Positions 28,408 to 52,235 of a stretch of 64,000 nucleotides of DNA are shown here, piece by piece. The DNA lies in the NCBI GenBank assembly GCA_022819805.1, contig JAJEGO010000065.1:4794-68793 (forward strand), given 5' to 3'. The notes under the pieces were generated by a model. The model had not been told where the DNA came from and did no database searches. It saw only the letters and a list, made by a program, of their open reading frames with translations. The stretch's first letter is position 1, and the number at the start of each line of letters is the position of its first letter. The translations under genes were made by a program, and so were the position numbers. This DNA is from Candidatus Dadabacteria bacterium (lineage in GTDB: Bacteria > Desulfobacterota_D > UBA1144 > Nemesobacterales > Nemesobacteraceae).

Positions 28408-29628
28408 TTAACCGCCTTGAATTGCCGTGGAGTAGATGTCGATGTCTTTGGAACTCATGCCTAAGCGGTGTGCCGTGCTTCGCCAGTCTTTTAGGGCAGT
28501 TGATATTTCATCGATAATTGCCTCGGCCTCTTTTTTCTTCAGAGCGAAAAACGGTGTTGCCTCGCGTGCCAGATCAAGACCGGCTTCAGGTCCTTGCTCC
28601 GAGATCCAGGTTGTAAGTTCCCGGGCTTTTTCCGCAAGCGGTACAGGATTCAGGTCGTAAGCGGGCGATAGGCGCCATCTGCCGTTGCGGTCGTAAAGGA
28701 ATCCGTGATTGCGGAGGTGATCGTCGAGATTGCCAATAAGCACGTTGAAGACAACCCGTCGCCAGAGTTCGTTCAGGTCTTCCGTGGGCGAGCTTGAATA
28801 CATGCGTATAATTTCTGCGATATCAGTGTAAGTTCCTTCGTCTCCATCGTTTAGTCCGAGAAGACTCATGGCCGACAGAAACGGGATGCGCCGGCTGCCC
28901 GCTCGGTCAAAGCGTCGAATCAGTGCCACTGGACGACCGACAACATTCAGTAACTTGGCGTCTGCCACGGTTAATCCCGCTTGGCGCGCCAAGGTCATTG
29001 CCAACACCTCTCCATGCGGTATGCTCCGATCATCATCGGGTTTTGGGAATTTGGCGATTGCCAGAGAGCCGTTTTTGTCTTGTACCGAGGATTTGGGGCG
29101 GGCACCGCCGAGAGGGGAGCCTTCATTCAAAAGCAACTTAAGGTCCTCCGCCGTTTCAGTATTTGTCTGCACCGCATCGGCCGCGTTTATAAGTGCTGGT
29201 AACTGGATCAGGGGTGGCACGCGAAAACCGGCGATATGATGATCAAAAGAGTCCTCTCCCTCTCGCCTGAAGCGCAACGCTCCGATACGTGCGTGATCCG
29301 TGACCCCGAGCAGATAATCGATCTCCAAAAGGGTTCGTTTTTCCCCGGATTTACTAAATGCGCGCCTGATAAGTTGTCTACCCCAGCGATCGGGTGCCGC
29401 GTCGCGGATGGCTCCCGGCAGGGCAGATTTATCTGAAAAAGTGTAAAACGCTCCGTCCCGGAGTGGCAGGTTTTCCGGATCAATTGCGAAGGCATCGGTT
29501 CCGCGGAGCCATTCGTCTGCGTATTCGAACGCCGAACTTTGGCTGTGGCGCCTGTTGACATAGCGGAAGCGCCCTACAATGCTGGTGCAGTCTGCCGTGT
29601 CAATATGGACTTCGATCGTGTCCTTCAT
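28408..29628 (-). CDS. hipA: type II toxin-antitoxin system HipA-family serine/threonine kinase toxin
   Basis: HipA N-domain, then the GGARPKSSVQDK loop, the catalytic NLDDHLRNHGFLY and the SPAYDLNP motifs. Confidence 0.85.
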   Translation of the reverse strand: MKDTIEVHIDTADCTSIVGRFRYVNRRHSQSSAFEYADEWLRGTDAFAIDPENLPLRDGAFYTFSDKSALPGAIRDAAPDRWGRQLIRRAFSKSGEKRTLLEIDYLLGVTDHARIGALRFRREGEDSFDHHIAGFRVPPLIQLPALINAADAVQTNTETAEDLKLLLNEGSPLGGARPKSSVQDKNGSLAIAKFPKPDDDRSIPHGEVLAMTLARQAGLTVADAKLLNVVGRPVALIRRFDRAGSRRIPFLSAMSLLGLNDGDEGTYTDIAEIIRMYSSSPTEDLNELWRRVVFNVLIGNLDDHLRNHGFLYDRNGRWRLSPAYDLNPVPLAEKARELTTWISEQGPEAGLDLAREATPFFALKKKEAEAIIDEISTALKDWRSTAHRLGMSSKDIDIYSTAIQGG

Positions 29629-35985: not shown

Positions 35986-36726
35986 ATGGGAAAGCTGCTT
36001 TTGCGAAGAAGAATTCTCATATCATTTCTGCTTGTCCTGTGTATCGGGGTGGGGGGATGCCGGCTCTTCAGGTTCCTTGAGGTAAAAAGCCAGCTTGGGA
36101 GTTTCGGCGAGAATTTCAGCGTGAGCGACCACGACGGCCTGAGACTCATCTTCAAAAAGCCCGTCCTGCTCGCAGGAGACATGGAGTGGCTCATGGTCTA
36201 CTCCCCGCCCGTGAAAACCCCCATTTCCGAAGACACCGAGCTTTGGACCTATCACCTGGTGAAGAAATATCCGGGCAGAAAAAGCGAAAGCGGGAATTTT
36301 GACTTGGACATGGGGATGAAGCTTTGTAGCGGGAAGCTCTGCGAGATCGCCTTTCCCGAGCGCTTCGCGAAGTACATAAACAAGGAGGTTCTCGGCAAGG
36401 TCATGGGCTCGGTGGGCGGCGCCGAAGTGAAAAAGCTTGCTAAGACGAGCACCGCGGCGGTCAAATCCCTTGAGTCCAAGGAAATCCCGAACTTCTCAGA
36501 GGTGATAGAGATTCTCGGCCGCCCGTACACAAAGCTCAGCGAAGACGGCGGAGATGTCTTCGTCTACAAGTACAGGCTGCGGGAGAGGACCCCGGAGGGA
36601 AAATACATCGTGTTCAGGCTTCTTCTGAGCTTTAACGAGAAAACGGCCAAGCTCAAGAGGCTGGTGCTTCCGCTTAGAAGCGTGAGGCTCGCGATGAATT
36701 TCGAGGCGGACGTGGCGGGAAGATGA
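35986..36726 (+). CDS. hypothetical lipoprotein
   Basis: Signal peptide with lipobox LCIGVGGC. No recognisable domain was found by eye. It overlaps ispE by 4 nt. Confidence 0.45.
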   Translation: MGKLLLRRRILISFLLVLCIGVGGCRLFRFLEVKSQLGSFGENFSVSDHDGLRLIFKKPVLLAGDMEWLMVYSPPVKTPISEDTELWTYHLVKKYPGRKSESGNFDLDMGMKLCSGKLCEIAFPERFAKYINKEVLGKVMGSVGGAEVKKLAKTSTAAVKSLESKEIPNFSEVIEILGRPYTKLSEDGGDVFVYKYRLRERTPEGKYIVFRLLLSFNEKTAKLKRLVLPLRSVRLAMNFEADVAGR

Positions 36727-37586
36727 GTTTTGTGAAGCTTCTTTCCCCGGCGAAGGTGAATCTGTTCCTGAGGGTTCTCCAAAAACGCCCGGACGGGTAT
36801 CATGAACTCCAGTCCATACTCCAGCCCGTAAGCCTCTTTGACGAAATAAGCCTTTCGGTGGAGTCGGGAGAAGGGGTAAGTCTTTTCCCTTCGGGAAGGG
36901 ACATGCCTTCTGGAAAGGACAACCTTGCCGTGGCCGCATGCCGCCTTTATCTTGAAGCTGCCGCGGTGCGAAAAAGGGTTTCGATAGCGATAGAAAAAAA
37001 CATTCCTCTCGGCGCGGGACTCGGCGGAGGAAGTTCAAACGCCGCAGCGGTTCTCGTGGGTCTTAACAAGGTTCTCGGGAAATTTACCGACGCCGAACTG
37101 CTACAGATGGCCGCATCTCTCGGAGCCGACGTCCCGTTCTTTATAAGATGCACCGCCTCGTTTGTCGAGGGAGTGGGGGAGAAGGTGAGCGTGCTTTCTG
37201 ATTTTCCGCTCTTTCACTACGTTATCCTCTTCCCCCGCAAGAGCCTCTCGACCCGGGAAGTCTATGCCGGGTGGAAACAGCCGTACCGGCTGCCCGAGAG
37301 AGCCGATCCCGTTTCCTTGGTGGAAGGGTTCCGCGGCGGTTTCCCCATTGAAAACGGTCTTGAGGAGGCGGTCTTCGGGATTTTCCCCGATATTTTCTCC
37401 TTCAGGGAGATTTTCCGGTCGCTCGGGGCGCGCTATGTGCTCGTGTCGGGAAGCGGGTCGTCGGTTTTTTCCGTTTTCCGCAAACAGGGGGAGGCGGAGC
37501 AGATCTACGAATACCTGAGAACCTCTTCTGAATTTGACGTTTTTCTGGCCCAAGGGATAAGCGGCTGGCATTTCCTTGCGGACTGA
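36723..37586 (+). CDS. ispE: 4-(cytidine 5'-diphospho)-2-C-methyl-D-erythritol kinase
   Basis: LLSPAKVNLFLRVL and GHMP-kinase motif PLGAGLGGGSSNAAA. Confidence 0.9.
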   Translation: MSFVKLLSPAKVNLFLRVLQKRPDGYHELQSILQPVSLFDEISLSVESGEGVSLFPSGRDMPSGKDNLAVAACRLYLEAAAVRKRVSIAIEKNIPLGAGLGGGSSNAAAVLVGLNKVLGKFTDAELLQMAASLGADVPFFIRCTASFVEGVGEKVSVLSDFPLFHYVILFPRKSLSTREVYAGWKQPYRLPERADPVSLVEGFRGGFPIENGLEEAVFGIFPDIFSFREIFRSLGARYVLVSGSGSSVFSVFRKQGEAEQIYEYLRTSSEFDVFLAQGISGWHFLAD

Positions 37587-37775
37587 ACCTTCTCAGCTGA
37601 CTTGCTTGCGGCCCGCGCTTCCGCTTGCGATACTTCGTTATGCTGACCGTCTTATATTCTCCTGAAATAATTTAACTGCCTGTTCTGCTTGCAAGAATAG
37701 GGTTGTGGGAGTAAAATGCCTAAGAGCAGAGAAAAGCTGCTCAGAACCGGAAAACTGCCCTGATTTAAAATAGCT

Positions 37776-39107
37776 TTGAAGATGAAATTAACACGCCTGG
37801 GAAAACTGAGGAATCGCCTTGGGTGCAAGGGGTGTTCCGTGATACGCATTGGGAGGGGAGTCGCTAAAGCCTTGAATATATCGCGTGTTTTCGTTGTCGT
37901 CGCGGGACTTTTGCTGGGACTTATGCTCATGGGAGGGCCTGCGGAGGTCAACACCCAAGAGACCAGTGTCGACGGCGATCTCAGATTGGTGGACATGGCT
38001 ACCGGTGAGGTAGTGAGCCTTGTTATTGCTGCTGCGCCCTCGGGCAGGCTTGAAATATTTGATGATGAAGATGGCGACGGCACTGGGGAATGGAAGGCAA
38101 TATGCGACGATTATCTTGGAGCGCTGGGAACGCAAGAAAGGGGAAACCTTCGGGTGATCGGCAGGCAGGAGGCCGAGGTCGCGTGCCGTCAGCTGGGCTA
38201 CTCTGGGGGTACTCCCATAACTGGGTTGACGCTGCCGGATGATATGGATTACCTGCTTGACAACCTTGAATGCGCGGGGTCTGAGGCGAGAATTTTCGGA
38301 GAGGGCAAGTGCAGACACCAGCCGCGCGGAGAACATGATTGCGAAAGCCAGAGAGCCCTTGGCGTCACATGTGAAGCCGCCACCTCGAATGACGATGCCG
38401 TAGGCAGGCTCGCAATCACGGGCGAAACTAAATTGAGGCAGACACTTGCCGCGGATCACACGGGCATTACCGACGAGGATGGCAAGCCGACTGAGGAGGC
38501 TTCTTTCAGCTATCAGTGGATCAGGGTTGATAATTACTGGAATGAAACCGAGATTCCCGGCGCGACGGCTTCCACCTATGTCCTTCAGGATGATGATGAG
38601 GAAAACTGGATCAAGGTGAGGCTGAGTTTCACGGACGATGATGGAAACGCGGAAGAGGTCTTCAGCTTTGAAGAGGGGCCCGTTTATACTGACAAGCCCG
38701 ACGGCTCTCTCCGATTAAGGCCCATTTTGCTCAGTTACAGCCTCGATGATGGTTCCACGCTCTCCGTGGACTCGGATCAGTTCACCGGCATGATCGAAAT
38801 ACTTGATGAGCCGAGCAGGAAATGGAAGGGAGTATGCGATGACGGGGCGGATGATGAAAATCTGGGGTGGGGCACGGAAGAAGCGCAGGTCGCATGTCGC
38901 CAGCTGGGCTACTCCGGGGGAATTCCGATCACCGAGATAGATGGGACCACCTCTCCGCCGACCTATTTTCTCCTTGATGGGGTGGAATGCGGAGGGACGG
39001 AGAAAAAGCTGCTTGATTGTGAACATGCGGAACGTGGAATTCACGATTGCACCTCGCTCGAATATGCAGGCGTTTTTTGTGACGACCCGGATAGCGACGA
39101 AAATTAA
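37776..39107 (+). CDS. secreted/anchored acidic protein with two SRCR-like (scavenger receptor cysteine-rich) domains flanking an Ig-like beta-sandwich repeat
   Basis: Hydrophobic N-terminal anchor. Two copies of CDD..G....EA.VACRQLGYSGG....(LD.L/LLDGV)EC.G.E..L..C....RG.HDC...(GV.C/GVFC). Between them lies a Y.W.RVD....EIPGAT.STYVL.DDD....IKV.LSFTDDDGN segment. Confidence 0.7.
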   Translation: MKMKLTRLGKLRNRLGCKGCSVIRIGRGVAKALNISRVFVVVAGLLLGLMLMGGPAEVNTQETSVDGDLRLVDMATGEVVSLVIAAAPSGRLEIFDDEDGDGTGEWKAICDDYLGALGTQERGNLRVIGRQEAEVACRQLGYSGGTPITGLTLPDDMDYLLDNLECAGSEARIFGEGKCRHQPRGEHDCESQRALGVTCEAATSNDDAVGRLAITGETKLRQTLAADHTGITDEDGKPTEEASFSYQWIRVDNYWNETEIPGATASTYVLQDDDEENWIKVRLSFTDDDGNAEEVFSFEEGPVYTDKPDGSLRLRPILLSYSLDDGSTLSVDSDQFTGMIEILDEPSRKWKGVCDDGADDENLGWGTEEAQVACRQLGYSGGIPITEIDGTTSPPTYFLLDGVECGGTEKKLLDCEHAERGIHDCTSLEYAGVFCDDPDSDEN

Positions 39108-39280
39108 TGAGGAAGCTTCCCATAAGCCGGTTCCCGGCTTTTATCTTATAATTTAGCCAGCTCAATCCTTCTACAGAAGTTCAGAAAAAACTGGGCGGGG
39201 TCTTAACTTGGTTGATGTCCGCGGTTCGGCTTTTGCTTTAACAGTCGTACGAATGTGGTAACATAAAACTTCCTTGCGAC

Positions 39281-39354
39281 TGGGGCGTCGTCTAACGGCA
39301 GGACACCGGGTTTTGGTCCCGGTAGTGGGGGTTCGAGTCCTCCCGCCCCAGCCA
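39281..39354 (+). tRNA. tRNA-Gln (anticodon UUG), CCA encoded
   Basis: Clean cloverleaf folded by hand: 7-bp acceptor tggggcg/cgcccca, D-arm with GG, anticodon stem ccggg/cccgg with loop ttTTGgt, T-arm gggggTTCGAGTCcctcc, discriminator G and CCA. The ends match E. coli tRNA-Gln (UGGGG...CCCCAGCCA). Confidence 0.9.
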
Positions 39355-39375
39355 AAAAAGACCGTTCTAGCGCCC

Positions 39376-41502
39376 GTGCCGAAAAATTTTCTTAAAGGAC
39401 TTAACTCTTCCCAGACTGAAGCCGTAACTCACGGAGAAGGTCCCCTACTGGTGCTTGCGGGTACGGGTACAGGAAAAACTAAAATTCTAGCTCACCGGAT
39501 CGCCTACCTGATAAACGATCTTTCTATTCCTCCAAGAAACATCTTGGCCGTGACCTTTACAAATAAGGCGGCCGCGGAAATGAAAAAAAGAGCAGAAGAA
39601 CTGGCAGGTGATCAGATAAGCGGTATCTGGGTTGGTACCTTTCACTCAATCTGTCTTCGGATTCTTAATATGGAAGTAAATTCTCTTGAGGGTTACACAA
39701 GGGGTTTCGTCGTCTACGACCAAGCCGATCAGCTTGGCCTCCTGAAAAGTTGCATGAAGGAGCTTGACTACGGGGAAACTCTTTTTTCGCTCAACGGCGT
39801 ATTCTCAGAATTTGACGCCATCGAGAACAGAGGGGACGTGTTTTTCAAGGACGATTTTTACGGTCGCGCACTTAGGGAGCTTTATGATTTCTACAAGGAC
39901 GAGCTTGTGAAGCGAAACGCCATGACGTTTAACGACCTACTTCTGCTTGCAAACAGGCTTCTTTCTGAAGATGAAGAGGTTTGTGCCCGCTGCCAAGGCA
40001 GGTTTTCTCACGTGCTTGTCGACGAGTATCAGGATACTAATGTTTCTCAGTACCGTTTCGTAAAGACCCTATCGCAGTGCCACCAAAACCTTTTTGCGCT
40101 GGGTGACGACAGCCAGTCGATTTACGGATGGAGAGGAGCCGACATAAACAATATCCTCAACTTCGAGAGTGACTTTCCTGGAGCAAGGGTAGTTAAACTC
40201 GAACGCAATTACCGCTCAACGACAACCATACTTGGTATTGCGAACTCTGTTGAGAGGAAAAACCTGAGGAGGAAGGAAAAAGCCCTGTGGACCGAAAACC
40301 CCGAGGGAGAGAAGGCAGTGGTATTTAAGGCAGGCGACAGCGCAGATGAGGCGCGGTTCGTGGCGGAGCAGATTTCACGCCTAGTCGGATCCGGGGATTT
40401 TACTTGGGGCGACATAGCGATTTTCTACAGGGCTAACTTTCAGTCAAGGGTAATCGAACAGGGATTCAGTGCCGGGAAGATTCCCTACAAGATAGTGTCT
40501 GGTGTAGGGTTTTATCAGAGGGCCGAGGTAAAGGACGTAGTTGCCTACCTGCGGCTGATTCAGAACCCAAGAGATGACCTGAGCTTTGAGAGAATAGTGA
40601 ATATTCCGCCAAGAAAAATAGGGAAAGTCACACTACAAAAGCTACGTGAAATTTCAAAAAGCGGCGGATTTACTCTTCTGGAAGCAATTAAATACTCCCA
40701 AGAGCAGAAGCTTTTGCCTACGCGATCACTTGGTGCCCTTTCCCGGTTTCTGGATATGATGGAGGAGCTTCGTTCAGAGGCGGAAAATCAGCCGACGGTG
40801 CGCGTGATTGATATTCTTCTCGAACGTATCGGCTACATGGATCACATAGGAGAGGATCTCCAAAGGGCGGAAAATATCAAGGAGCTTTTGGCTGCGGCCA
40901 AGGACTCGGAGGATGAAAACCTCTCTTATTTTCTTGATTCTGTACCGCTTGCAACTGACGAGGACAGGGCGGATTCCGAAAACAAAGAAGTCTCCCTCAT
41001 GACGATTCATGCGGCCAAGGGACTTGAGTTTCCCGTGGTGTTCGTGGTCGGGGTAAACGAGGGCTTGCTTCCGCACCAAAGATCCGCATCCACATTGGAG
41101 GGGCTTGAGGAAGAAAGGAGGCTTTTCTATGTAGCGATTACCCGAGCCGAGCGCTTGCTTTACCTCAGTTACGCTTCCCTAAAGGCCGCTTCGGGTGGCA
41201 CGTACAGTACTCGCAGGTCGGTTTTTCTGGACGACCTTCCTCCGGAACATGTCGTCTACGAATCCCGCAAGAAAGAAATTTCTGGCCAGGATTCTGACCG
41301 CTTTTCCGACTCGTCCTCAAAGACACAGGACGAGTCTAGGGGTGAAGGCCAAAGACTAAGACCCGGACAGAGGGTTACCCACTACATCTTTGGTCCCGGG
41401 GTCGTTAAGCGGATTGAGGGTAAGGGGGATGAGGCAGTGGTCACGGTTGATTTTTTCGGTTCCGAGGTGAAGAAAATCCTCGCGAGTTTTCTTTCCGCCT
41501 AG
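39376..41502 (+). CDS. uvrD: ATP-dependent DNA helicase UvrD/PcrA family
   Basis: Walker A AGTGTGKT, motifs through VDEYQDTN, and a C-terminal Tudor-like tail. The start was re-set to GTG 39376; the ORF-track start at 39274 would run through the tRNA. Confidence 0.85.
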   Translation: MPKNFLKGLNSSQTEAVTHGEGPLLVLAGTGTGKTKILAHRIAYLINDLSIPPRNILAVTFTNKAAAEMKKRAEELAGDQISGIWVGTFHSICLRILNMEVNSLEGYTRGFVVYDQADQLGLLKSCMKELDYGETLFSLNGVFSEFDAIENRGDVFFKDDFYGRALRELYDFYKDELVKRNAMTFNDLLLLANRLLSEDEEVCARCQGRFSHVLVDEYQDTNVSQYRFVKTLSQCHQNLFALGDDSQSIYGWRGADINNILNFESDFPGARVVKLERNYRSTTTILGIANSVERKNLRRKEKALWTENPEGEKAVVFKAGDSADEARFVAEQISRLVGSGDFTWGDIAIFYRANFQSRVIEQGFSAGKIPYKIVSGVGFYQRAEVKDVVAYLRLIQNPRDDLSFERIVNIPPRKIGKVTLQKLREISKSGGFTLLEAIKYSQEQKLLPTRSLGALSRFLDMMEELRSEAENQPTVRVIDILLERIGYMDHIGEDLQRAENIKELLAAAKDSEDENLSYFLDSVPLATDEDRADSENKEVSLMTIHAAKGLEFPVVFVVGVNEGLLPHQRSASTLEGLEEERRLFYVAITRAERLLYLSYASLKAASGGTYSTRRSVFLDDLPPEHVVYESRKKEISGQDSDRFSDSSSKTQDESRGEGQRLRPGQRVTHYIFGPGVVKRIEGKGDEAVVTVDFFGSEVKKILASFLSA

Positions 41503-46827: not shown

Positions 46828-46956
46828 CGCGGGTTACAAAATTATACATTTTTCTTCGGTTTCATCCAGTAGTGGAAGAAAGTGACAACCGGGCTTCGAT
46901 CAAGTAAATTTAAAAAGTCTGGTTGCGGACAAAATGGGTGGTTAAATCTTTACGTC

Positions 46957-48492
46957 ATGCACGAGGAAACGGAGTTCAAGCTCTCTCTTTCGCCTTCCGT
47001 GGCGAGTCGGATTCTGCGCTACAAGGGACTCAGGCCCCACCGCAAGGGCCGCCGCGTAAAGCGCCATCTCGTAAGCACCTATTTCGATACTCCCCGCCAT
47101 GCGCTTAGAAAATCCGAGATAGCGCTTCGGGTGCGCGATAACGGCAAGGGAAGGGAGCAGACCGTGAAGGCGCCGTTCCAAGGCCCCGCGGGCCTCCAGA
47201 ATTTCCGTGAGTGGACAGTGCCTGTAAACGGCGACTGCCCGAATCTCCGCGCGGTGGACGATCCCGCGCTCGTGCGCGAGCTCTCCCGCCGGCGTTACGA
47301 AAAGCGCCTGCGTCCGGTGTTCACCACGGACTTTGAGCGTGAAGCGGTTTGCATAAGGACCAATGGCACGGAATTCGAGCTTGCGGTCGATCAGGGGGTG
47401 ATTTGCGCCGAGACGCGCGAGGGGCTCGTCAAGGAACGTATCTGCGAAGCGGAATTCGAACTGCTCTCAGGCGACCCCGCGCACATGTTCGATATAGCGC
47501 TTGAACTCTGCGAGGTTTACGACATACGGCTCGGTCATCTTACCAAGGCGCAGAGGGGCTACGCGCTTGCGAGACCGGCGCTCCGCCCAAGACCCCGCAA
47601 GGCTCCCAAGGTTGTGCTTGCAGAGGAGATGAGTGTGGGAGAGGCGTTTAATTTCATCGTCTCGGGTGCCCTTGAACATATGTTCGCAAACGAGATTCCG
47701 ACCCTTGAGGGAAAGGCCGAGGGAGTGCACCAAACAAGGGTGGCGATGAGACGTGTGCGCGCGGCGCTCCGCGCTTTTAAGAGGATACTTCCCTACGACA
47801 AGAGAAAGGCGTTTAACGGAGAATTCCGCTGGTTCCAGCAGCGACTGGCCCCGGCCCGCGACTGGCAGGTCTTTTTAAGCGAGACGCTCCCCAAAATAGC
47901 GTCCTATGCTCCCGAGCAGGAAGAAGCGATAGAGCGCCTTCGGCGTATCGCCCGTGCAGAGCGGCGCCGTGCCGTCGGGGATGCGGCCGCCTATCTTGAG
48001 AGCCGCCGCTACGCCCGTCTTCTGCTCCAGTTCGAGCGATGGATAGCTTCTGTCGAGAAGGAAGTCGGCTCAAAGGCTTTCAGTCAGCCCGTGAAGCCGT
48101 TTGCGAAAAGTGTGCTTAAGAGAACATGGCGCTATTTTCTCGAAGATACGAGGCCTCTTTCGCGTCTTCCTGACGAGGATCTTCACGAAATAAGAAAACG
48201 CGGGAAAAAGGCCCGCTACGCAACGCAGTTTTTCAACTCGCTCTGGAGCGGCCCCGAGGTTCCGCCCTTTATGAAGCTCATGGGACGCTTCCAGGACAGC
48301 TTGGGAAAGACAAACGACGCGATAGTCGCGCGGCACATCCTGGCGGCGGTCAAGCCCGGGAGGCTTGATCCCTCGGTAATCCGCCTCGCGCAGGAATGGT
48401 CCCAGGCCCGGGTGAAAAAATGCCTTCGTACGGCGCAGCCGCAGTGGAGACGCCTCGGACGGCTTACGCCGTTTTGGAAGGTGGCGGAGTGA
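46957..48492 (+). CDS. CYTH and CHAD domain-containing protein
   Basis: N-terminal CYTH triphosphate-tunnel motif EFKLSL...E.E, then a long helical CHAD region. The start was set at MHEETEFKL. Confidence 0.75.
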   Translation: MHEETEFKLSLSPSVASRILRYKGLRPHRKGRRVKRHLVSTYFDTPRHALRKSEIALRVRDNGKGREQTVKAPFQGPAGLQNFREWTVPVNGDCPNLRAVDDPALVRELSRRRYEKRLRPVFTTDFEREAVCIRTNGTEFELAVDQGVICAETREGLVKERICEAEFELLSGDPAHMFDIALELCEVYDIRLGHLTKAQRGYALARPALRPRPRKAPKVVLAEEMSVGEAFNFIVSGALEHMFANEIPTLEGKAEGVHQTRVAMRRVRAALRAFKRILPYDKRKAFNGEFRWFQQRLAPARDWQVFLSETLPKIASYAPEQEEAIERLRRIARAERRRAVGDAAAYLESRRYARLLLQFERWIASVEKEVGSKAFSQPVKPFAKSVLKRTWRYFLEDTRPLSRLPDEDLHEIRKRGKKARYATQFFNSLWSGPEVPPFMKLMGRFQDSLGKTNDAIVARHILAAVKPGRLDPSVIRLAQEWSQARVKKCLRTAQPQWRRLGRLTPFWKVAE

Positions 48493-48574
48493 GTTCGGCT
48501 TTTCACGTGCCGGGCAATTATGTAAACTCACGGGCTGTGGGTGTTAAGACGCAGCATGTTACGCCCTCGGGAGG

Positions 48575-50734
48575 TTGCAGGTGGCTTCTTCAATAACGGA
48601 CATCGCGAGCAAGAGAGGTTCCAGGGGTTCTTCCAAGAAGTATCTTAACAGGGAGCTTTCCTGGCTTGATTTCAACCTGCGGGTTCTCGAGACGGCGGCA
48701 AGCAAGAAGGTTCCGCTTCTTGAGAGGGTGCGGTTCCTGTCCATCTCCGCGAGCAACCTCGATGAGTTCTACAAGGTGAGGGTTGCGGGTCTTGCGGGAC
48801 AGGTCATGGAGGGAGTGACCGACCGCAGCAAAGACGGTCTTACGCCGTCCCAGCAGCTCGAAGCCATAAGGGAGAAGGTGCGCTTTCTGCTCGACAGCCA
48901 GTACGAGTGCGAAAAGGAACTGTTTTCCCTCTGCAAGAAGGCGAAGATCAAGATCGTGACTCCCGAGAAACTCGACCGCTCGGACGCCGAATGGCTTTCC
49001 GAATGGTTCTCGAAACAGCTTTTTCCGGTGCTTACCCCTCTTTCCATAGACCCGGCGCATCCGTTTCCCTTCATACAGAGCGAAAGCCTCGTGTGCGCCG
49101 TGCAGCTGAGCCGCGCCGAGGACGGAAAGCGCATGACGGGTCTCATACTGCTGCCTTCCCAGGTGGAGCGCTTCATAAGGGTTCCTGGAGGGAAAAAAAT
49201 CCAGTTTGTCCCGATCGAGAAGGTCATCGAGCACAACATGAAATCCCTTTTCCCGGGTTTTGAAGTCGAGAACCAGGGGATCTTCCAGATCACCCGCGAC
49301 AGCCTTCTTGAGATAGACGAGGACGCGGAAGATCTGGTCGATACGTTTGAAACTGCCCTTAAGCAGCAACGCAGGGGAGGGTCCGTGATCAGGGTTGACG
49401 TAAACGCGGACATGCCGGACGCGATCGTCGACTTCATAATGGACAAGCTTGAGGCCCGTGACGCGCATTTTTTCAGAATCAAGGGGATGCTCGGTCTTGA
49501 GAGCGTGAAGCAGATAATACTCGATGAGCGAAGCGACCTTCTGTACAAGCGCATGAGTATCCGCTACCCAGAGCGGGTAAGGGAATTCGGAGGCGACGTG
49601 ATGGCCGCCATACGGCAGAAGGATTTCGTCGTTCACCACCCGTACGAGAGTTTCGACGTCGTAGTCGAGTTCCTGAAACAGGCCGCGGCGGACCCGGCGG
49701 TCGTCGCGATCAAGCAGACGCTTTACCGCACCTCGGTAGACTCCCCGATAGTGAAAAGGCTCATAGAGGCCGCCGAGGCCGGAAAATCCGTAACCGCCAT
49801 GGTGGAACTCAAGGCCCGTTTCGACGAGGAGGCCAACATCCGCTGGGCTCATGACCTCGAGGATGCGGGAGTCCAGGTCGTGTTCGGATTCCTCGACCTT
49901 AAAACCCACGCCAAGGTGTCGCTCGTGGTGAGAAGGGAGGGTTCCGACATCCGCACCTACGCCCACTTCGGCACCGGCAACTATCACCCCGTAAACGCCA
50001 AGATATACACTGACCTCAGCTACTTCACGGCCGACGAGGCGCTCGGCCGGGACGCTGCCAAGCTTTTTAACTACATGACCGGTTACGCCACTCCGGAGAA
50101 GATGGAGAGGATATTTTTCTCTCCCGTCACGATGCGCCCGAAGGTGCTTGAGCTGATAAGGGACGAGATAGATCACGCGAAGGCCGGCCGGCCGGCGGTG
50201 ATATGGGCCAAGATGAATTCCCTTGTGGACAGCAAGATCATAGACGCGCTCTACGCGGCGAGCCGCGCGGGGGTGCGGATCGAGCTTTTCGTTCGGGGAA
50301 TATGCTGCCTCCGGCCCGGGGTGCCTGGGCTTTCTGAGAACATCAGGGTAAAGAGCATCGTGGGGCGTTTCCTCGAGCACAGCAGGGTCATCTGCTTTGG
50401 CGCCGGGGAGGGGCTTCCCTCTAATGCCTGCAAGGTCTTCATCTCGTCTGCAGACTGGATGCCCCGCAATCTTGACCGCAGGGTGGAGTCACTTGTTCCG
50501 ATCGAAAACGCCACCGTGAAAAAACAGCTCGTTGAGCAGGTGATGGTCGCTAATCTAAAAGATGTCGTGAACAGCTGGGAAATGGGACCGGACGGCTCTT
50601 TCCGCAAGCTGAAAAGAGAAGGGGACAATTTTTCGGCTCACAAATACTTTATGACCAACCCCAGTCTTTCGGGGAGAGGCAAGGCGCTTGCCGAATCCCG
50701 GCCGCTGATGCCGGCTGAGTTTGTGCAGGAATAA
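48575..50734 (+). CDS. ppk: polyphosphate kinase 1
   Basis: NRELSWLDFNLRVL N-terminus, PLD-like HKxxxxD-type tandem C-domains, and the histidine autophosphorylation region. Confidence 0.92.
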   Translation: MQVASSITDIASKRGSRGSSKKYLNRELSWLDFNLRVLETAASKKVPLLERVRFLSISASNLDEFYKVRVAGLAGQVMEGVTDRSKDGLTPSQQLEAIREKVRFLLDSQYECEKELFSLCKKAKIKIVTPEKLDRSDAEWLSEWFSKQLFPVLTPLSIDPAHPFPFIQSESLVCAVQLSRAEDGKRMTGLILLPSQVERFIRVPGGKKIQFVPIEKVIEHNMKSLFPGFEVENQGIFQITRDSLLEIDEDAEDLVDTFETALKQQRRGGSVIRVDVNADMPDAIVDFIMDKLEARDAHFFRIKGMLGLESVKQIILDERSDLLYKRMSIRYPERVREFGGDVMAAIRQKDFVVHHPYESFDVVVEFLKQAAADPAVVAIKQTLYRTSVDSPIVKRLIEAAEAGKSVTAMVELKARFDEEANIRWAHDLEDAGVQVVFGFLDLKTHAKVSLVVRREGSDIRTYAHFGTGNYHPVNAKIYTDLSYFTADEALGRDAAKLFNYMTGYATPEKMERIFFSPVTMRPKVLELIRDEIDHAKAGRPAVIWAKMNSLVDSKIIDALYAASRAGVRIELFVRGICCLRPGVPGLSENIRVKSIVGRFLEHSRVICFGAGEGLPSNACKVFISSADWMPRNLDRRVESLVPIENATVKKQLVEQVMVANLKDVVNSWEMGPDGSFRKLKREGDNFSAHKYFMTNPSLSGRGKALAESRPLMPAEFVQE

Positions 50735-52235
50735 TCTTATGACAGAAATATCTCCTTCCGCCGTGCCGTTCGGCGAGGGTGGGACCGTGGCGGTAATCGA
50801 CGTGGGATCAAACTCCATACGTCTCGTTGTCTACAAGGGACCGAGACGCGCTCCGCTTCCTATACTTGATGAAAAAGTCTCCTGCGGCTTAGGACGCGGA
50901 ATGGACTCAGAGGGCAGGATGTCGCCGCGAAGCATGGACCTGTCCCTCCGGACCGTAAGCCGCTTCGTTGACATCGCGCGCTCCATGAGGGTTTCCGGTA
51001 TAAAGGCGGTTGCCACCGCCGCGGTGAGAAACGCCGCAAACGGCCCCGACTTCAAGGAGGCCGTCGAGCGTGAGTGCGGGATTTCGCTTCGGGTGCTCTC
51101 TGGCATCGAGGAGGCGAGGCTTTCTGCGCTCGGCACCCTCTGCGCCATTCCGGATTCGGACGGCGTGATGGGGGACATAGGAGGCGGGAGCCTTGAACTG
51201 GTAGAGATCTGCGAGGGAGAAATAAGAAATCACGCCACGTTGCCGCTGGGTACCATCCCGCTTCTTGAAAGCGGTCTCAGTCCCCAAAAGGCCGCCAAGG
51301 AACTGATCGCTCCCCGTCTTGAAGAGCTTCCCTGGCTTAAAAACGCGAAAAAGAAAACCTTCTACGCCGTCGGAGGATCGTGGCGCGCCCTGGCGAAAAA
51401 ACACATGGAAACCGAGGACTACCCGCTTCGCATAGTTCACGGCTACAGTCTTTCGAGTTCAAGGGCGCTTGAGATGACCCGGGAGGTAGTTGATATATCC
51501 CCGGGCTCGCTTCGGAGCCTCTGGATCATAGGGAGAAACAGGATGGAATCCGCTCCCTACGCCGCGGCGCTTATGAAAAGTCTTCTGAAAAAAACAGGGG
51601 CAAGAGATCTTGTGTTCTGTACGTACGGCCTTCGGGAAGGGTGCATATATGATGATCTTCCACCGGAGCAGCGCTCCTTGGACCCCCTCATTGTCATGTG
51701 CCAGGAAATCGCGCTCAAGACGGGAAGATCGATCGGGGACGGCGAGGCTTTCTGCAGGTGGATAGAGCCGGCGATTCCTGATGAGTGCTCCGGGAATCCG
51801 AGGCTGAGACTTACCGCCTGCCATCTTTCCGACATAGGGATTTCCGAACATCCCGAGTACCGGGCCGAACAGGTGTTTTTGAGGATACTGCGGATGCCGT
51901 TTGTGGGAATCACGCACCCCGAAAGGGTAAGGGTGGCTTTTTCGGTCGCCTCAAGGCACGCGGCGATCGGAAACCTGGTCCGCCGCTGGGAAGTCTCGGA
52001 TTTTCTTTCCGGGGGCGATATTGAGGAAGCCAGAGTTACGGGGCTTGCGCTTCGCCTGGCTTACACGGTTTCTGGAGGGGTGACGCGGATTCTTGAGAGT
52101 ACGAGGCTTGAGAGGTCCAGGGGAAAGCTTACGCTGCGTATGCCTGACCAGATACCGCATCCTGAGACCGTCGGCCGTCGTTTAGGGGCCCTCGCAAAGG
52201 CCGTCGGATGCGATTACGAGACGATCGCTCGGTAG
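50721..52235 (+). CDS. ppx: exopolyphosphatase / guanosine pentaphosphate phosphohydrolase (Ppx/GppA)
   Basis: ASKHA-fold motifs AVIDVGSNSIRLVVY and DIGGGSLE. It overlaps ppk by 14 nt. Confidence 0.88.
   Translation: MCRNNLMTEISPSAVPFGEGGTVAVIDVGSNSIRLVVYKGPRRAPLPILDEKVSCGLGRGMDSEGRMSPRSMDLSLRTVSRFVDIARSMRVSGIKAVATAAVRNAANGPDFKEAVERECGISLRVLSGIEEARLSALGTLCAIPDSDGVMGDIGGGSLELVEICEGEIRNHATLPLGTIPLLESGLSPQKAAKELIAPRLEELPWLKNAKKKTFYAVGGSWRALAKKHMETEDYPLRIVHGYSLSSSRALEMTREVVDISPGSLRSLWIIGRNRMESAPYAAALMKSLLKKTGARDLVFCTYGLREGCIYDDLPPEQRSLDPLIVMCQEIALKTGRSIGDGEAFCRWIEPAIPDECSGNPRLRLTACHLSDIGISEHPEYRAEQVFLRILRMPFVGITHPERVRVAFSVASRHAAIGNLVRRWEVSDFLSGGDIEEARVTGLALRLAYTVSGGVTRILESTRLERSRGKLTLRMPDQIPHPETVGRRLGALAKAVGCDYETIAR

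What the first reader, a model, noticed from the sequence alone, without database searches (positions are those of the whole stretch)
37776..39107. Bacterial protein with two scavenger-receptor cysteine-rich (SRCR)-like domains
Two segments match the SRCR consensus almost position for position. They start with a G.(L/I)E(I/L) strand, then W(K/G).(I/V)CDD, EA.VACRQLGYSGG, a (LD.L/LLDGV)EC.G.E..L..C motif, and ...RG.HDC...(GV.C/GVFC). The six cysteines are in the canonical order. They flank an Ig-like repeat (Y.W.RVD...EIPGAT.STYVL.DDDEENWIKV.LSFTDDDGN), and the whole protein is very acidic. SRCR domains are an animal innate-immunity and adhesion module and are rare in prokaryotes. The gene lies immediately upstream of tRNA-Gln, a typical landing site for acquired DNA, and it has an N-terminal membrane anchor.
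Basis: partly seen in the sequence, partly recalled or inferred. Interest (0 to 1): 0.65.

Follow-up and report, generated by a model that had tools for sequence, protein, structure and literature searches.

The report
Bacterial SRCR–Ig–SRCR envelope protein
A bacterium of the candidate phylum Dadabacteria, a group common in marine sponges, encodes an exported, very acidic protein built from two genuine copies of the animal "scavenger receptor cysteine-rich" domain; it is conserved across a whole clade of these bacteria and appears undescribed in the papers searched.

Summary
The ORF (most likely start ATG 37782, stop 39107, 441 aa) matches Pfam SRCR at E 1.3e-28 in two stretches. Its AlphaFold model superposes on MARCO, SCARA5 and DMBT1 SRCR domains (TM 0.75-0.88). 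All 12 cysteines are conserved in at least 59 of 60 homologues. The middle domain is an Ig-like sandwich, the mature part has pI about 4.1, and a hydrophobic N-terminal helix is present.

It is not a recent island. About 90 full-length homologues (40-91% identity) come from Dadabacteria MAGs. The order ispE, SRCR gene, tRNA-Gln, uvrD is kept down to 56% identity. Composition is ordinary, dN/dS is 0.13-0.20, and there is no integrase or att repeat. Two sister lineages have an empty ispE|tRNA-Gln site, so an old clade-specific gain is likely.

The acidic cation-binding triad that mediates ligand binding in DMBT1 and MARCO is conserved in domain 2. In domain 1 of this protein the third residue is Arg.

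The most likely function is a Sec-exported, disulfide-stabilised, Ca2+/Mg2+-dependent binding or adhesion protein of the cell envelope. A role in dealing with a sponge host is possible but untested. NCBI already names homologues as SRCR proteins, but no paper found describes bacterial SRCR proteins.

The parts
37643..37717 (+). Two sigma-70-like promoter matches upstream of the gene. These are consensus matches only.
   Evidence: 2 sites found against 1.2 expected in shuffles, so this is weak evidence.
37782..39107 (+). Coding sequence of the SRCR-Ig-SRCR protein (441 aa plus stop).
   Evidence: ORF. Homologue N-termini align to ATG 37782. The exact 441-aa product is on record and the 443-aa version is not. 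dN/dS is 0.13-0.20 against orthologues.
37782..37877 (+). Basic N-terminal tail (aa 1-32), presumed cytoplasmic, with a conserved (L/F)xKLRN motif. C15 and C18 form a CxxC that is not conserved.
   Evidence: Alignment. pLDDT is about 30, so it is probably disordered.
37878..37934 (+). Hydrophobic helix (aa 33-51). It is either a signal anchor or the h-region of a Sec signal peptide.
   Evidence: Helix 33-49 in the model. The conserved sequence AGLLLGLLLxGGPAEV is seen. The paralogue P0066 has a short classical signal peptide at the same place.
37965..38381 (+). SRCR domain 1 (aa 62-200). It has six cysteines and two insertions relative to animal SRCRs. The acidic pair D109-D110 is present, but the third triad residue is R191.
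38388..38681 (+). Ig-like beta-sandwich (aa 203-300) of the A9 / SCAB-Ig type.
   Evidence: Domain model has pLDDT 90.7. The best Foldseek PDB match is the SCAB1 Ig domain (E 1.2e-4, TMq 0.61), followed by titin Ig/Fn3. Pfam IG_AIR9 matches below threshold in 13 of 18 members. Bacterial proteins with PF23197 or fn3 share 40-51% identity over this segment.
38697..39089 (+). SRCR domain 2 (aa 306-436). It has six cysteines and a complete acidic triad D353, D354, E427.
   Evidence: Best Pfam stretch is 331-433. Alignment to CD163 domains. Conservation is 57/57/60 of 60 for the triad and 60/60 for all six cysteines.
39124..39150 (+). Terminator-like GC hairpin followed by a T-rich tail, directly after the stop codon.
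   Evidence: This is a consensus match; 2 were found against 2.4 expected in shuffles.
39281..39354 (+). tRNA-Gln (anticodon TTG), the syntenic downstream neighbour. It is context, not part of the protein.
   Evidence: The same neighbour is present in L001-L007, L009, L010 and L016.
36723..37586 (+). ispE (GHMP kinase), the syntenic upstream neighbour. It is context only.
   Evidence: with synteny shown.

Best explanation
The gene encodes a vertically inherited envelope protein of a clade of Candidatus Dadabacteria, built as N-terminal basic tail, hydrophobic helix, SRCR domain, Ig-like domain, SRCR domain.

Shown here:
- Both domains are true members of the SRCR superfamily by profile score, cysteine pattern and predicted fold.
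- The family is monophyletic, and its two domains arose from one internal duplication.
- The gene is under purifying selection and sits in core chromosome.

Inferred:
- The hydrophobic helix sends the protein through the Sec pathway. The three-domain part then lies outside the cytoplasm, either tethered to the inner membrane or released after cleavage.
- Three disulfides per domain form there. The canonical pairing would be C108-C187, C135-C197 and C164-C177 in domain 1, and C352-C423, C372-C433 and C403-C413 in domain 2.
- Domain 2 holds a Ca2+/Mg2+ ion on the conserved acidic triad D353/D354/E427, as DMBT1 and MARCO do. That ion bridges to anionic ligands such as sulfated or phosphorylated glycans or acidic protein patches.
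- The Ig-like domain acts as a spacer.
- In this protein domain 1 carries Arg in place of the triad Glu, so it probably binds differently or without the cation.

The most likely role is cation-dependent binding or adhesion in the cell envelope. Every homologue whose provenance could be traced comes from a sponge-associated dataset, so the ligand may be a host matrix or recognition molecule.
For: - Identity: Pfam SRCR E 1.3e-28 in 2 stretches, and all 60 aligned family members match. PDB sequence hits include CD163, CD5L, DMBT1, MARCO, SCARA5 and neurotrypsin.
- Fold: AF2 model pLDDT 81.9, pTM 0.75. Foldseek gives MARCO 2oy3 TMt 0.88 at rmsd 1.3, SCARA5 0.80 at 1.5, and DMBT1 6sa5 0.78 at 1.4.
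- Cysteines: each of the 12 is kept in at least 59 of 60 members.
- Cation site: in DMBT1, D1019, D1020 and E1086 coordinate the cation at site 2. Mutating D1019 or D1020 abolishes binding to hydroxyapatite, heparin and a streptococcal protein, and the same site exists in MARCO (PMC7043408). The equivalents in domain 2 are kept in 57, 57 and 60 of 60 members. In domain 1 they are kept in 59, 60 and 57 of 60, with R191 in this protein.
- Export: hydrophobic helix 33-49 after a basic tail.
- Function retained: dN/dS 0.13-0.20, and below 0.31 in each of the three folded domains.
- Single origin: in a neighbour-joining tree all family domains form one clade, with D1 and D2 each monophyletic. D1 and D2 are 44% identical.
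- Vertical inheritance: synteny with ispE, tRNA-Gln and uvrD down to 56% identity, and ordinary composition.
- Sponge link: locus L012 carries the sample tag of the Robbins 2021 sponge MAG set, which reports 22 Dadabacteria MAGs. Dadabacteria MAGs are also reported from Petrosia ficiformis.
Against: - No ligand, localisation or expression data exist.
- The export signal could not be classified as cleaved peptide or anchor. If the protein stays tethered to the inner membrane of a diderm cell, it cannot touch a host directly.
- The triad is incomplete in domain 1 of this protein.
- Habitat metadata were unavailable for most homologues, so restriction to sponge symbionts is not shown.
- Mapping of DMBT1 residue numbers onto the CDD and E(D/Y)AGV motifs rests on my own knowledge of the DMBT1 sequence. 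The motif-level equivalence itself is visible.
Confidence: 0.6

Rival explanations
1. It is a housekeeping periplasmic protein with no host role. The protein stays anchored in the inner membrane and serves the bacterium's own envelope, for example by binding its own anionic polymers or by working with a periplasmic Cache-domain sensor lipoprotein.
For: - The basic tail and hydrophobic helix are conserved and look like a signal anchor.
- The gene sits among core and envelope genes: an OmpA-family protein, a TPR/YfiO-like lipoprotein, an unknown lipoprotein and ispE.
- Selection is purifying.
- A secreted Cache_2 protein of 388-458 aa lies directly downstream in L004-L007, L009-L012 and, in a different genomic context, L014. 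These Cache proteins are 47-48% identical to each other.
Against: - The Cache partner is absent from this window and from L001-L003.
- Paralogues carry ordinary cleavable-looking signal peptides.
- The family is confined to one subclade and missing at the same site in sister lineages, which is unusual for a housekeeping envelope function.
Confidence: 0.25
2. It is a recently acquired island gene inserted next to tRNA-Gln.
For: - The gene is adjacent to tRNA-Gln.
- The ispE|tRNA-Gln slot varies between lineages: empty, SRCR alone, SRCR plus Cache, or truncated SRCR plus SRCR plus Cache.
Against: - The gene lies on the 5' side of the tRNA.
- There is no second copy of the tRNA 3' end in 64 kb.
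- None of the ORFs scanned between 25.8 and 58.2 kb matches an integrase or other mobile-element family.
- GC, GC3 and tetranucleotide z-scores are all below 1.
- Orthologues keep the position down to 56% protein identity, with dS up to about 2.
Confidence: 0.05
3. It is an artefact, either host (animal) DNA mis-assembled into a bacterial bin or a chance cysteine-rich ORF.
For: SRCR is overwhelmingly an animal domain, and sponges carry hundreds of SRCR genes (296 in Amphimedon; PMC10855680).
Against: - The gene is intron-free and flanked by bacterial genes on contigs of 0.9-2.4 Mb, some of them titled as chromosome assemblies, from independent samples.
- The best animal hits are about 30% identical or less over the whole protein.
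- dN/dS shows selection in the bacterial lineage.
Confidence: 0.01

Closest known systems
Group A SRCR domains of animal scavenger receptors (MARCO, SR-AI/SCARA1, SCARA5, Mac-2 binding protein)
   Same: - Same fold in the model: TMt 0.77-0.88 and rmsd 1.3-2.1 for MARCO, SCARA5 and SCARA1, and 0.81 at 4.9 for Mac-2 binding protein.
- Six cysteines at the C2, C3, C5, C6, C7 and C8 positions, with none at C1 or C4.
- Acidic CDD...E cluster at the MARCO metal site.
   Different: - Bacterial host and no collagenous stalk.
- Each domain is 130-140 aa rather than about 100-110, because of insertions after strand 1 and between CDD and the helix.
- A few deep family members (P0085, P0087) keep the extra C1/C4 pair typical of group B.
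- The exon criterion for group A does not apply to bacteria.
DMBT1/SALSA/gp340 and CD163 (group B multi-SRCR proteins)
   Same: - These are the top sequence and structure hits: CD163 E 1.8e-32, DMBT1 SRCR8 TMt 0.78.
- The cation-site residues are shared.
- Both have tandem SRCR domains separated by another module.
   Different: - Only two SRCR domains.
- The spacer is a bacterial-type Ig-like domain rather than SID, CUB or ZP.
- No C1-C4 disulfide.
- The VEVLxxxxW bacteria-binding motif is stretched and acidic (IEILDEPSRKW in domain 2), as read directly from the sequence.
Eukaryote-like proteins of sponge symbionts (ankyrin, LRR, TPR, cadherin and fn3 proteins)
   Same: An animal-type extracellular module is encoded by a lineage found in sponges. 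Such proteins are thought to mediate attachment or evasion of phagocytosis (PMC8163846).
   Different: SRCR is not among the domain classes analysed in that work. No paper found links SRCR to Dadabacteria or to any bacterial symbiont. Enrichment in symbionts was not tested here.
Bacterial giant surface proteins that carry SRCR modules (P0119 and relatives, locus L013)
   Same: These are the nearest SRCR domains outside the family. They are exported bacterial proteins from the same kind of metagenome assemblies.
   Different: They are 500-1300 aa mosaics containing fn3_6, Calx-beta, Big_12, cadherin, LRR or autotransporter domains, and the few named ones are Gammaproteobacteria. Their SRCR domains lack the Dadabacterial insertions.

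Membership tests
SRCR superfamily (Pfam PF00530) | Profile match above the curated threshold | tested here: met
   99.7 bits against a 26.1 cut-off, E 1.3e-28, two stretches. All 60 family members match.
SRCR superfamily (Pfam PF00530) | Six to eight cysteines at conserved positions in each domain | tested here: met
   Six per domain, aligned with C2, C3, C5, C6, C7 and C8 of animal domains. Each is kept in at least 59 of 60 members.
SRCR superfamily (Pfam PF00530) | Fold consisting of a beta-sheet cradling one alpha-helix | tested here: met
   Predicted only. The AF2 model matches MARCO, SCARA5, DMBT1 and neurotrypsin at TMt 0.72-0.88.
SRCR superfamily (Pfam PF00530) | Disulfide connectivity C2-C7, C3-C8, C5-C6 | not testable with these tools
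The pairing is inferred from alignment only.
SRCR superfamily (Pfam PF00530) | Acidic cation-binding cluster (DMBT1 D1019, D1020, E1086; also the MARCO site) | tested here: met
   Domain 2 has D353, D354 and E427, kept in 57, 57 and 60 of 60 members. Domain 1 has D109 and D110 but R191 in this protein, where 57 of 60 members have E. Ion binding itself was not measured.
SRCR superfamily (Pfam PF00530) | Extracytoplasmic location | tested here: inconclusive
   An N-terminal hydrophobic helix follows a basic tail. No signal-peptide predictor was available, so cleavage and final compartment are unknown.
SRCR group A versus group B | Group A has six cysteines and lacks C1 and C4; group B has eight | tested here: met
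   Both domains of this protein show the group A pattern. Three to four deep family members have C1 plus C4 in domain 1. The exon-structure criterion does not apply to bacteria.
A9 / AIR9-type Ig-like domain (PF23197) | Profile match above threshold | tested here: not met
   17.1 bits against a 27.5 cut-off for this protein. Sub-threshold hits occur in 13 of 18 members, best E 9.4e-5. The Ig-like fold itself is supported.
tRNA-associated genomic island | Integrase, direct repeat of the tRNA 3' end, atypical composition, patchy presence among close relatives | tested here: not met
   No integrase among the ORFs scanned between 25.8 and 58.2 kb. No repeat of the tRNA end. Composition z-scores are below 1. 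The gene is present in all close relatives. Only distant sister lineages have an empty site.
Eukaryote-like proteins of sponge symbionts | Enrichment in host-associated over free-living relatives, and an effect on host cells | not tested
   Only provenance hints are available: the ROBB21 sample tag on L012. The Langseth MAG name is a sponge-ground hint from my own knowledge only, and one search found no confirmation. No habitat metadata or experiments were available.

The most novel reading that the evidence does not exclude
The SRCR module was captured from an animal long ago and is now a shared currency among sponge symbionts: the Dadabacteria SRCR-Ig-SRCR family and the SRCR mosaics of Gammaproteobacteria-like bacteria. 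Displayed or released by the bacterium, it would engage the sponge's own greatly expanded SRCR and aggregation-factor recognition system, through Ca2+-dependent binding of sulfated glycans or by mimicking self. The symbiont would then be retained in the mesohyl and spared from phagocytosis.
Probability: 0.2. Interest if true: 0.8.

Novelty: new member of a known kind. Interest (0 to 1): 0.55.

Why it matters
SRCR domains are a hallmark of animal innate immunity and cell adhesion, and sponges have expanded them to hundreds of genes. If a conserved, selected bacterial SRCR family exists in a sponge-associated phylum, it would add a domain class to the known eukaryote-like proteins of symbionts. 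It would give a concrete, testable candidate for how symbionts interact with host recognition systems.

[quoted passage not shown] The bacterial family has a single origin, one internal duplication and a long history of vertical descent. The protein is small (about 385 aa when mature), predicted with confidence, and carries a specific mutable triad, so biochemical tests are feasible.

Tried and rejected
- An exact look-up of the 443-aa TTG-start product found nothing. The 441-aa ATG-start product is on record, so the start was moved to 37782.
- An exhaustive HMMER search with domain 2 against 1.8 billion representatives found 5325 clusters. The top 150 were dominated by giant multi-SRCR proteins, which says nothing about bacterial spread.
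- The afdb50 fold library was unavailable.
- Ten literature searches found no paper on bacterial or Dadabacterial SRCR proteins. Provenance of the Langseth MAG could not be confirmed.
- Sub-threshold Pfam hits were rejected because they are short and far weaker than SRCR: YecR (E 0.0016, 25 residues over CRQLGYSGG) and CsgG (E 0.13).
- Host contamination was rejected on synteny.
- A recent tRNA island was rejected on composition, the absence of repeats and conserved synteny.
- No second SRCR gene was found by tblastn, and no Cache partner, anywhere in the 64-kb window.
- Rfam finds only the tRNA.
- Alignment of the intergenic regions was spoiled by a scripting slip. Only the empty-site spacings of 72 bp and 47 bp were used from it.
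Full report
**1. What is in the sequence**

The + strand carries an open frame from 37776 to 39107. Aligned homologues begin at the ATG two codons downstream. The exact 441-aa product starting at 37782 is on record in public gene calls, while the 443-aa version is not. I therefore place the gene at 37782..39107.

Two promoter-like sites lie upstream and a GC hairpin with a T-rich tail follows the stop codon. Both are consensus matches only. tRNA-Gln(ttg) lies 174 bp downstream. The reverse-strand ORFs that overlap the gene have no support.

**2. The SRCR claim**

- Profile evidence: Pfam PF00530 matches at E 1.3e-28 (99.7 bits against a cut-off of 26.1) in two stretches.
- Sequence evidence: phmmer against PDB sequences finds CD163 (E 1.8e-32), PIT54, CD5L, neurotrypsin, MARCO, LOXL2, SCARA5, DMBT1, SCARA1, Mac-2BP and CD6.
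- Fold evidence: an AlphaFold2 model built from 60 homologues has pLDDT 81.9 and pTM 0.75. Foldseek against the PDB gives CD163 at E 1e-14. Among single SRCR domains it gives MARCO at TMt 0.88 and rmsd 1.3 Å, SCARA5 at 0.80 and 1.5, and DMBT1 SRCR8 at 0.78 and 1.4.
- Cysteines: each domain has six, aligned with the canonical C2, C3, C5, C6, C7 and C8. The C1 and C4 positions are not cysteine, which is the group A pattern. All twelve are kept in at least 59 of 60 family members.
- Group B remnants: three or four deep-branching members, such as P0085 and P0087, have the extra C1/C4 pair in domain 1.
- Insertions: relative to animal domains, both bacterial domains carry insertions after the first strand and between the CDD motif and the helix.

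**3. The rest of the protein**

Residues 203-300 form an all-beta sandwich, with pLDDT 90.7 when modelled alone. The best structural match is the Ig domain of plant SCAB1 (E 1.2e-4), followed by titin Ig/Fn3 domains. Pfam IG_AIR9 and SCAB-Ig match below threshold. Bacterial proteins with PF23197 or fn3 domains share 40-51% identity with this segment. "Ig-like" is therefore right.

The protein is very acidic. The mature part has pI 4.1, with 83 D+E against 29 K+R.

The N-terminus is a basic, poorly predicted tail with a conserved (L/F)xKLRN motif, followed by a hydrophobic helix at residues 33-49. Whether this is a cleaved signal peptide or an anchor could not be decided. A paralogue, P0066, has a short classical signal peptide ending in ISA|QG at the same place.

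**4. Relatives and genomic setting**

About 90 clusters of full-length homologues with the same architecture were found (397-460 aa, 36-91% identity). All come from bacterial metagenome contigs of up to 2.4 Mb. [quoted passage not shown] Animal DMBT1-like proteins follow at about 30% identity or less over the whole protein.

Seven species-representative genomes hold the orthologue. They are Dadabacteria, some filed as "Thermodesulfobacteriota", with contigs of up to 1.9 Mb, five of them titled as chromosome assemblies.

The order hemL, lipoproteins, flavin reductase, lipoprotein, ispE, SRCR gene, tRNA-Gln, uvrD, selO is kept in these genomes. It is also kept in more distant genomes at 56-58% identity.

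The window around the gene is core chromosome, carrying dnaE, ppk1, ppx, tatC, serA, a His-tRNA-synthetase-family gene and ATP synthase subunit a. GC, GC3 and tetranucleotide usage are all within one standard deviation of the other genes. The tRNA 3' end is not repeated anywhere in the window. dN/dS against nine orthologues is 0.13-0.20, and below 0.31 in each of the three folded domains.

This is not a recent island. However, two sister lineages have an empty site. L016 (2.39 Mb) and L018 (1.98 Mb) have IspE at 60-61% identity and keep ispE, tRNA-Gln and uvrD with only 72 and 47 bp between ispE and the tRNA. The slot varies between lineages:

| State of the ispE-tRNA-Gln slot | Loci |
|---|---|
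| Empty | L016, L018 |
| SRCR gene alone | window, L001-L003 |
| SRCR gene plus a Cache_2 lipoprotein | L004-L007, L009 |
| Truncated SRCR copy, SRCR gene and Cache_2 | L010-L012 |

An old gain in the ancestor of one Dadabacteria subclade is the simpler reading, but no outgroup polarises it, because L017 lacks the synteny.

**5. Origin of the domains**

The two domains of this protein are 44% identical to each other (E 4e-23). That is closer than either is to any animal domain.

In a neighbour-joining tree of 143 SRCR domains, all 55 family domains form one clade, with domain 1 and domain 2 each monophyletic. This points to one origin and one internal duplication. The tree is distance-based, has no bootstrap values, and uses about 107 columns.

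The nearest outsider is P0119, from a contig with a same-strand cluster of several SRCR/fn3/Calx-beta/Big_12 genes. Its relatives are bacterial surface mosaics, and a few are named Gammaproteobacteria. SRCR modules therefore circulate in more than one bacterial lineage. Sponge SRCRs show no special affinity to the bacterial family.

Several Dadabacteria genomes carry two or three paralogues. One lies after uvrD in L004-L006. The P0082 type lies elsewhere on the same contig as an IspE orthologue of 83% identity. P0092 is a further paralogue.

**6. How it probably works**

In DMBT1, D1019, D1020 and E1086 hold a cation. Mutating D1019 or D1020 abolishes binding to hydroxyapatite, heparin and a streptococcal protein. 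The same site is used in MARCO, CD6 and CD163 (PMC7043408).

The equivalent positions are the DD after C2 and the E in E(D/Y)AGV before C8. In domain 2 they are D353, D354 and E427, kept in 57, 57 and 60 of 60 members. In domain 1 they are D109, D110 and R191, where 57 of 60 members have Glu. The mapping of DMBT1 residue numbers onto these motifs is from my own knowledge of the DMBT1 sequence. The motif alignment itself is visible.

My best reading is a Sec-exported, disulfide-stabilised, cation-dependent binding or adhesion protein, with the Ig-like domain acting as a spacer. Export, disulfides, ion binding and ligand are all inferred.

The link to sponges rests on three things:
- One locus carries the sample tag of the Robbins 2021 sponge MAG set, which reports 22 Dadabacteria MAGs.
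- Dadabacteria MAGs are reported from Petrosia ficiformis.
- One MAG is named after the Langseth Ridge sponge grounds. This rests on my own knowledge and was not confirmed.

Enrichment in symbionts over free-living relatives was not tested.

A rival reading is a purely bacterial periplasmic role. It is favoured by the anchor-like N-terminus and by the recurrent downstream Cache_2 partner, which persists even in a different genomic context in L014.

**7. Novelty**

NCBI's pipeline already names homologues as SRCR-domain proteins, so the domain call is not new. Ten full-text searches found no paper on bacterial SRCR proteins. All 15 papers that cite PF00530 concern animals. Sponge-symbiont studies of eukaryote-like proteins cover ankyrin, LRR, TPR, HEAT, WD40, cadherin and fn3 but not SRCR.

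I rate it a new member of a known kind. It is a well-conserved bacterial branch of the SRCR superfamily with its own architecture, and of moderate interest.

Noticed in passing
L004 7390-8556; L009 6364-7701; L010 6359-7699; L014 2681-4057: A secreted or lipoprotein-like Cache_2-domain protein (388-458 aa, 47-48% identical between loci) lies directly downstream of the SRCR gene in many relatives. In L014 the pairing persists in a different genomic context. It is absent from this window and from L001-L003. This may indicate a functional pair.
   Followed up: partly
L016 6868-6939; L018 6868-6914: Two sister-lineage contigs keep ispE, tRNA-Gln and uvrD but have an empty site (72 and 47 bp) where the SRCR gene sits in this window. 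The ispE|tRNA-Gln junction is therefore a variable slot.
   Followed up: yes
L010 4372-4833 (also L011 and L012): A 153-aa ORF upstream of the full gene is a truncated duplicate. It covers the end of the Ig-like domain plus SRCR domain 2 and is 51% identical to the window protein.
   Followed up: partly
L004 11216-12403; L005 11277-12479; L006 11290-12492; L008 6001-7275: Extra paralogues occur in the same genomes. A 395-400 aa copy with a classical signal peptide lies after uvrD. A deep paralogue (P0082 type, 41% identity) lies in an unrelated context, and P0092 is a further copy. The window has only one copy within its 64 kb.
   Followed up: partly
L013 1497-10079: A same-strand cluster of at least three large genes combines SRCR with fn3, Calx-beta, Big_12 and fn3_6. 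Relatives include SRCR fused to cadherin, LRR or HemolysinCabind domains, while related Big_12 proteins without SRCR carry autotransporter beta-domains. A few relatives are named Gammaproteobacteria. SRCR is a shuffled module in other bacteria too.
   Followed up: partly
window 38352-38354 (residue R191): In SRCR domain 1 of this protein and its two closest relatives, the third residue of the cation-binding triad is Arg. The other 57 of 60 family members have Glu.
   Followed up: partly
window 37824-37835 (C15 and C18): The N-terminal tail contains a CxxC (LGCKGCS). It is shared with P0027 but not conserved in the family.
   Followed up: no
window 46882-52235: A polyphosphate gene cluster on the + strand: a CYTH-CHAD protein, polyphosphate kinase 1 and exopolyphosphatase. 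A 2026 paper lists Dadabacteria among ppk1-carrying sponge symbionts.
   Followed up: no
window 28408-29628 (-): A HipA-like toxin kinase gene (HipA_C E 1.2e-51) lies in otherwise core chromosome.
   Followed up: no
window 39274-39376: The listed uvrD ORF starts at TTG 39274 and overlaps tRNA-Gln, which is an artefact of mechanical ORF calling. An in-frame GTG at 39376, just after the tRNA, matches the start region of the orthologues.
   Followed up: partly
cluster of P0047: One near-identical homologue on a 4.3-kb contig is labelled Gemmatimonadota in NCBI (MDE2799569.1). This is probably a binning error rather than a transfer.
   Followed up: no
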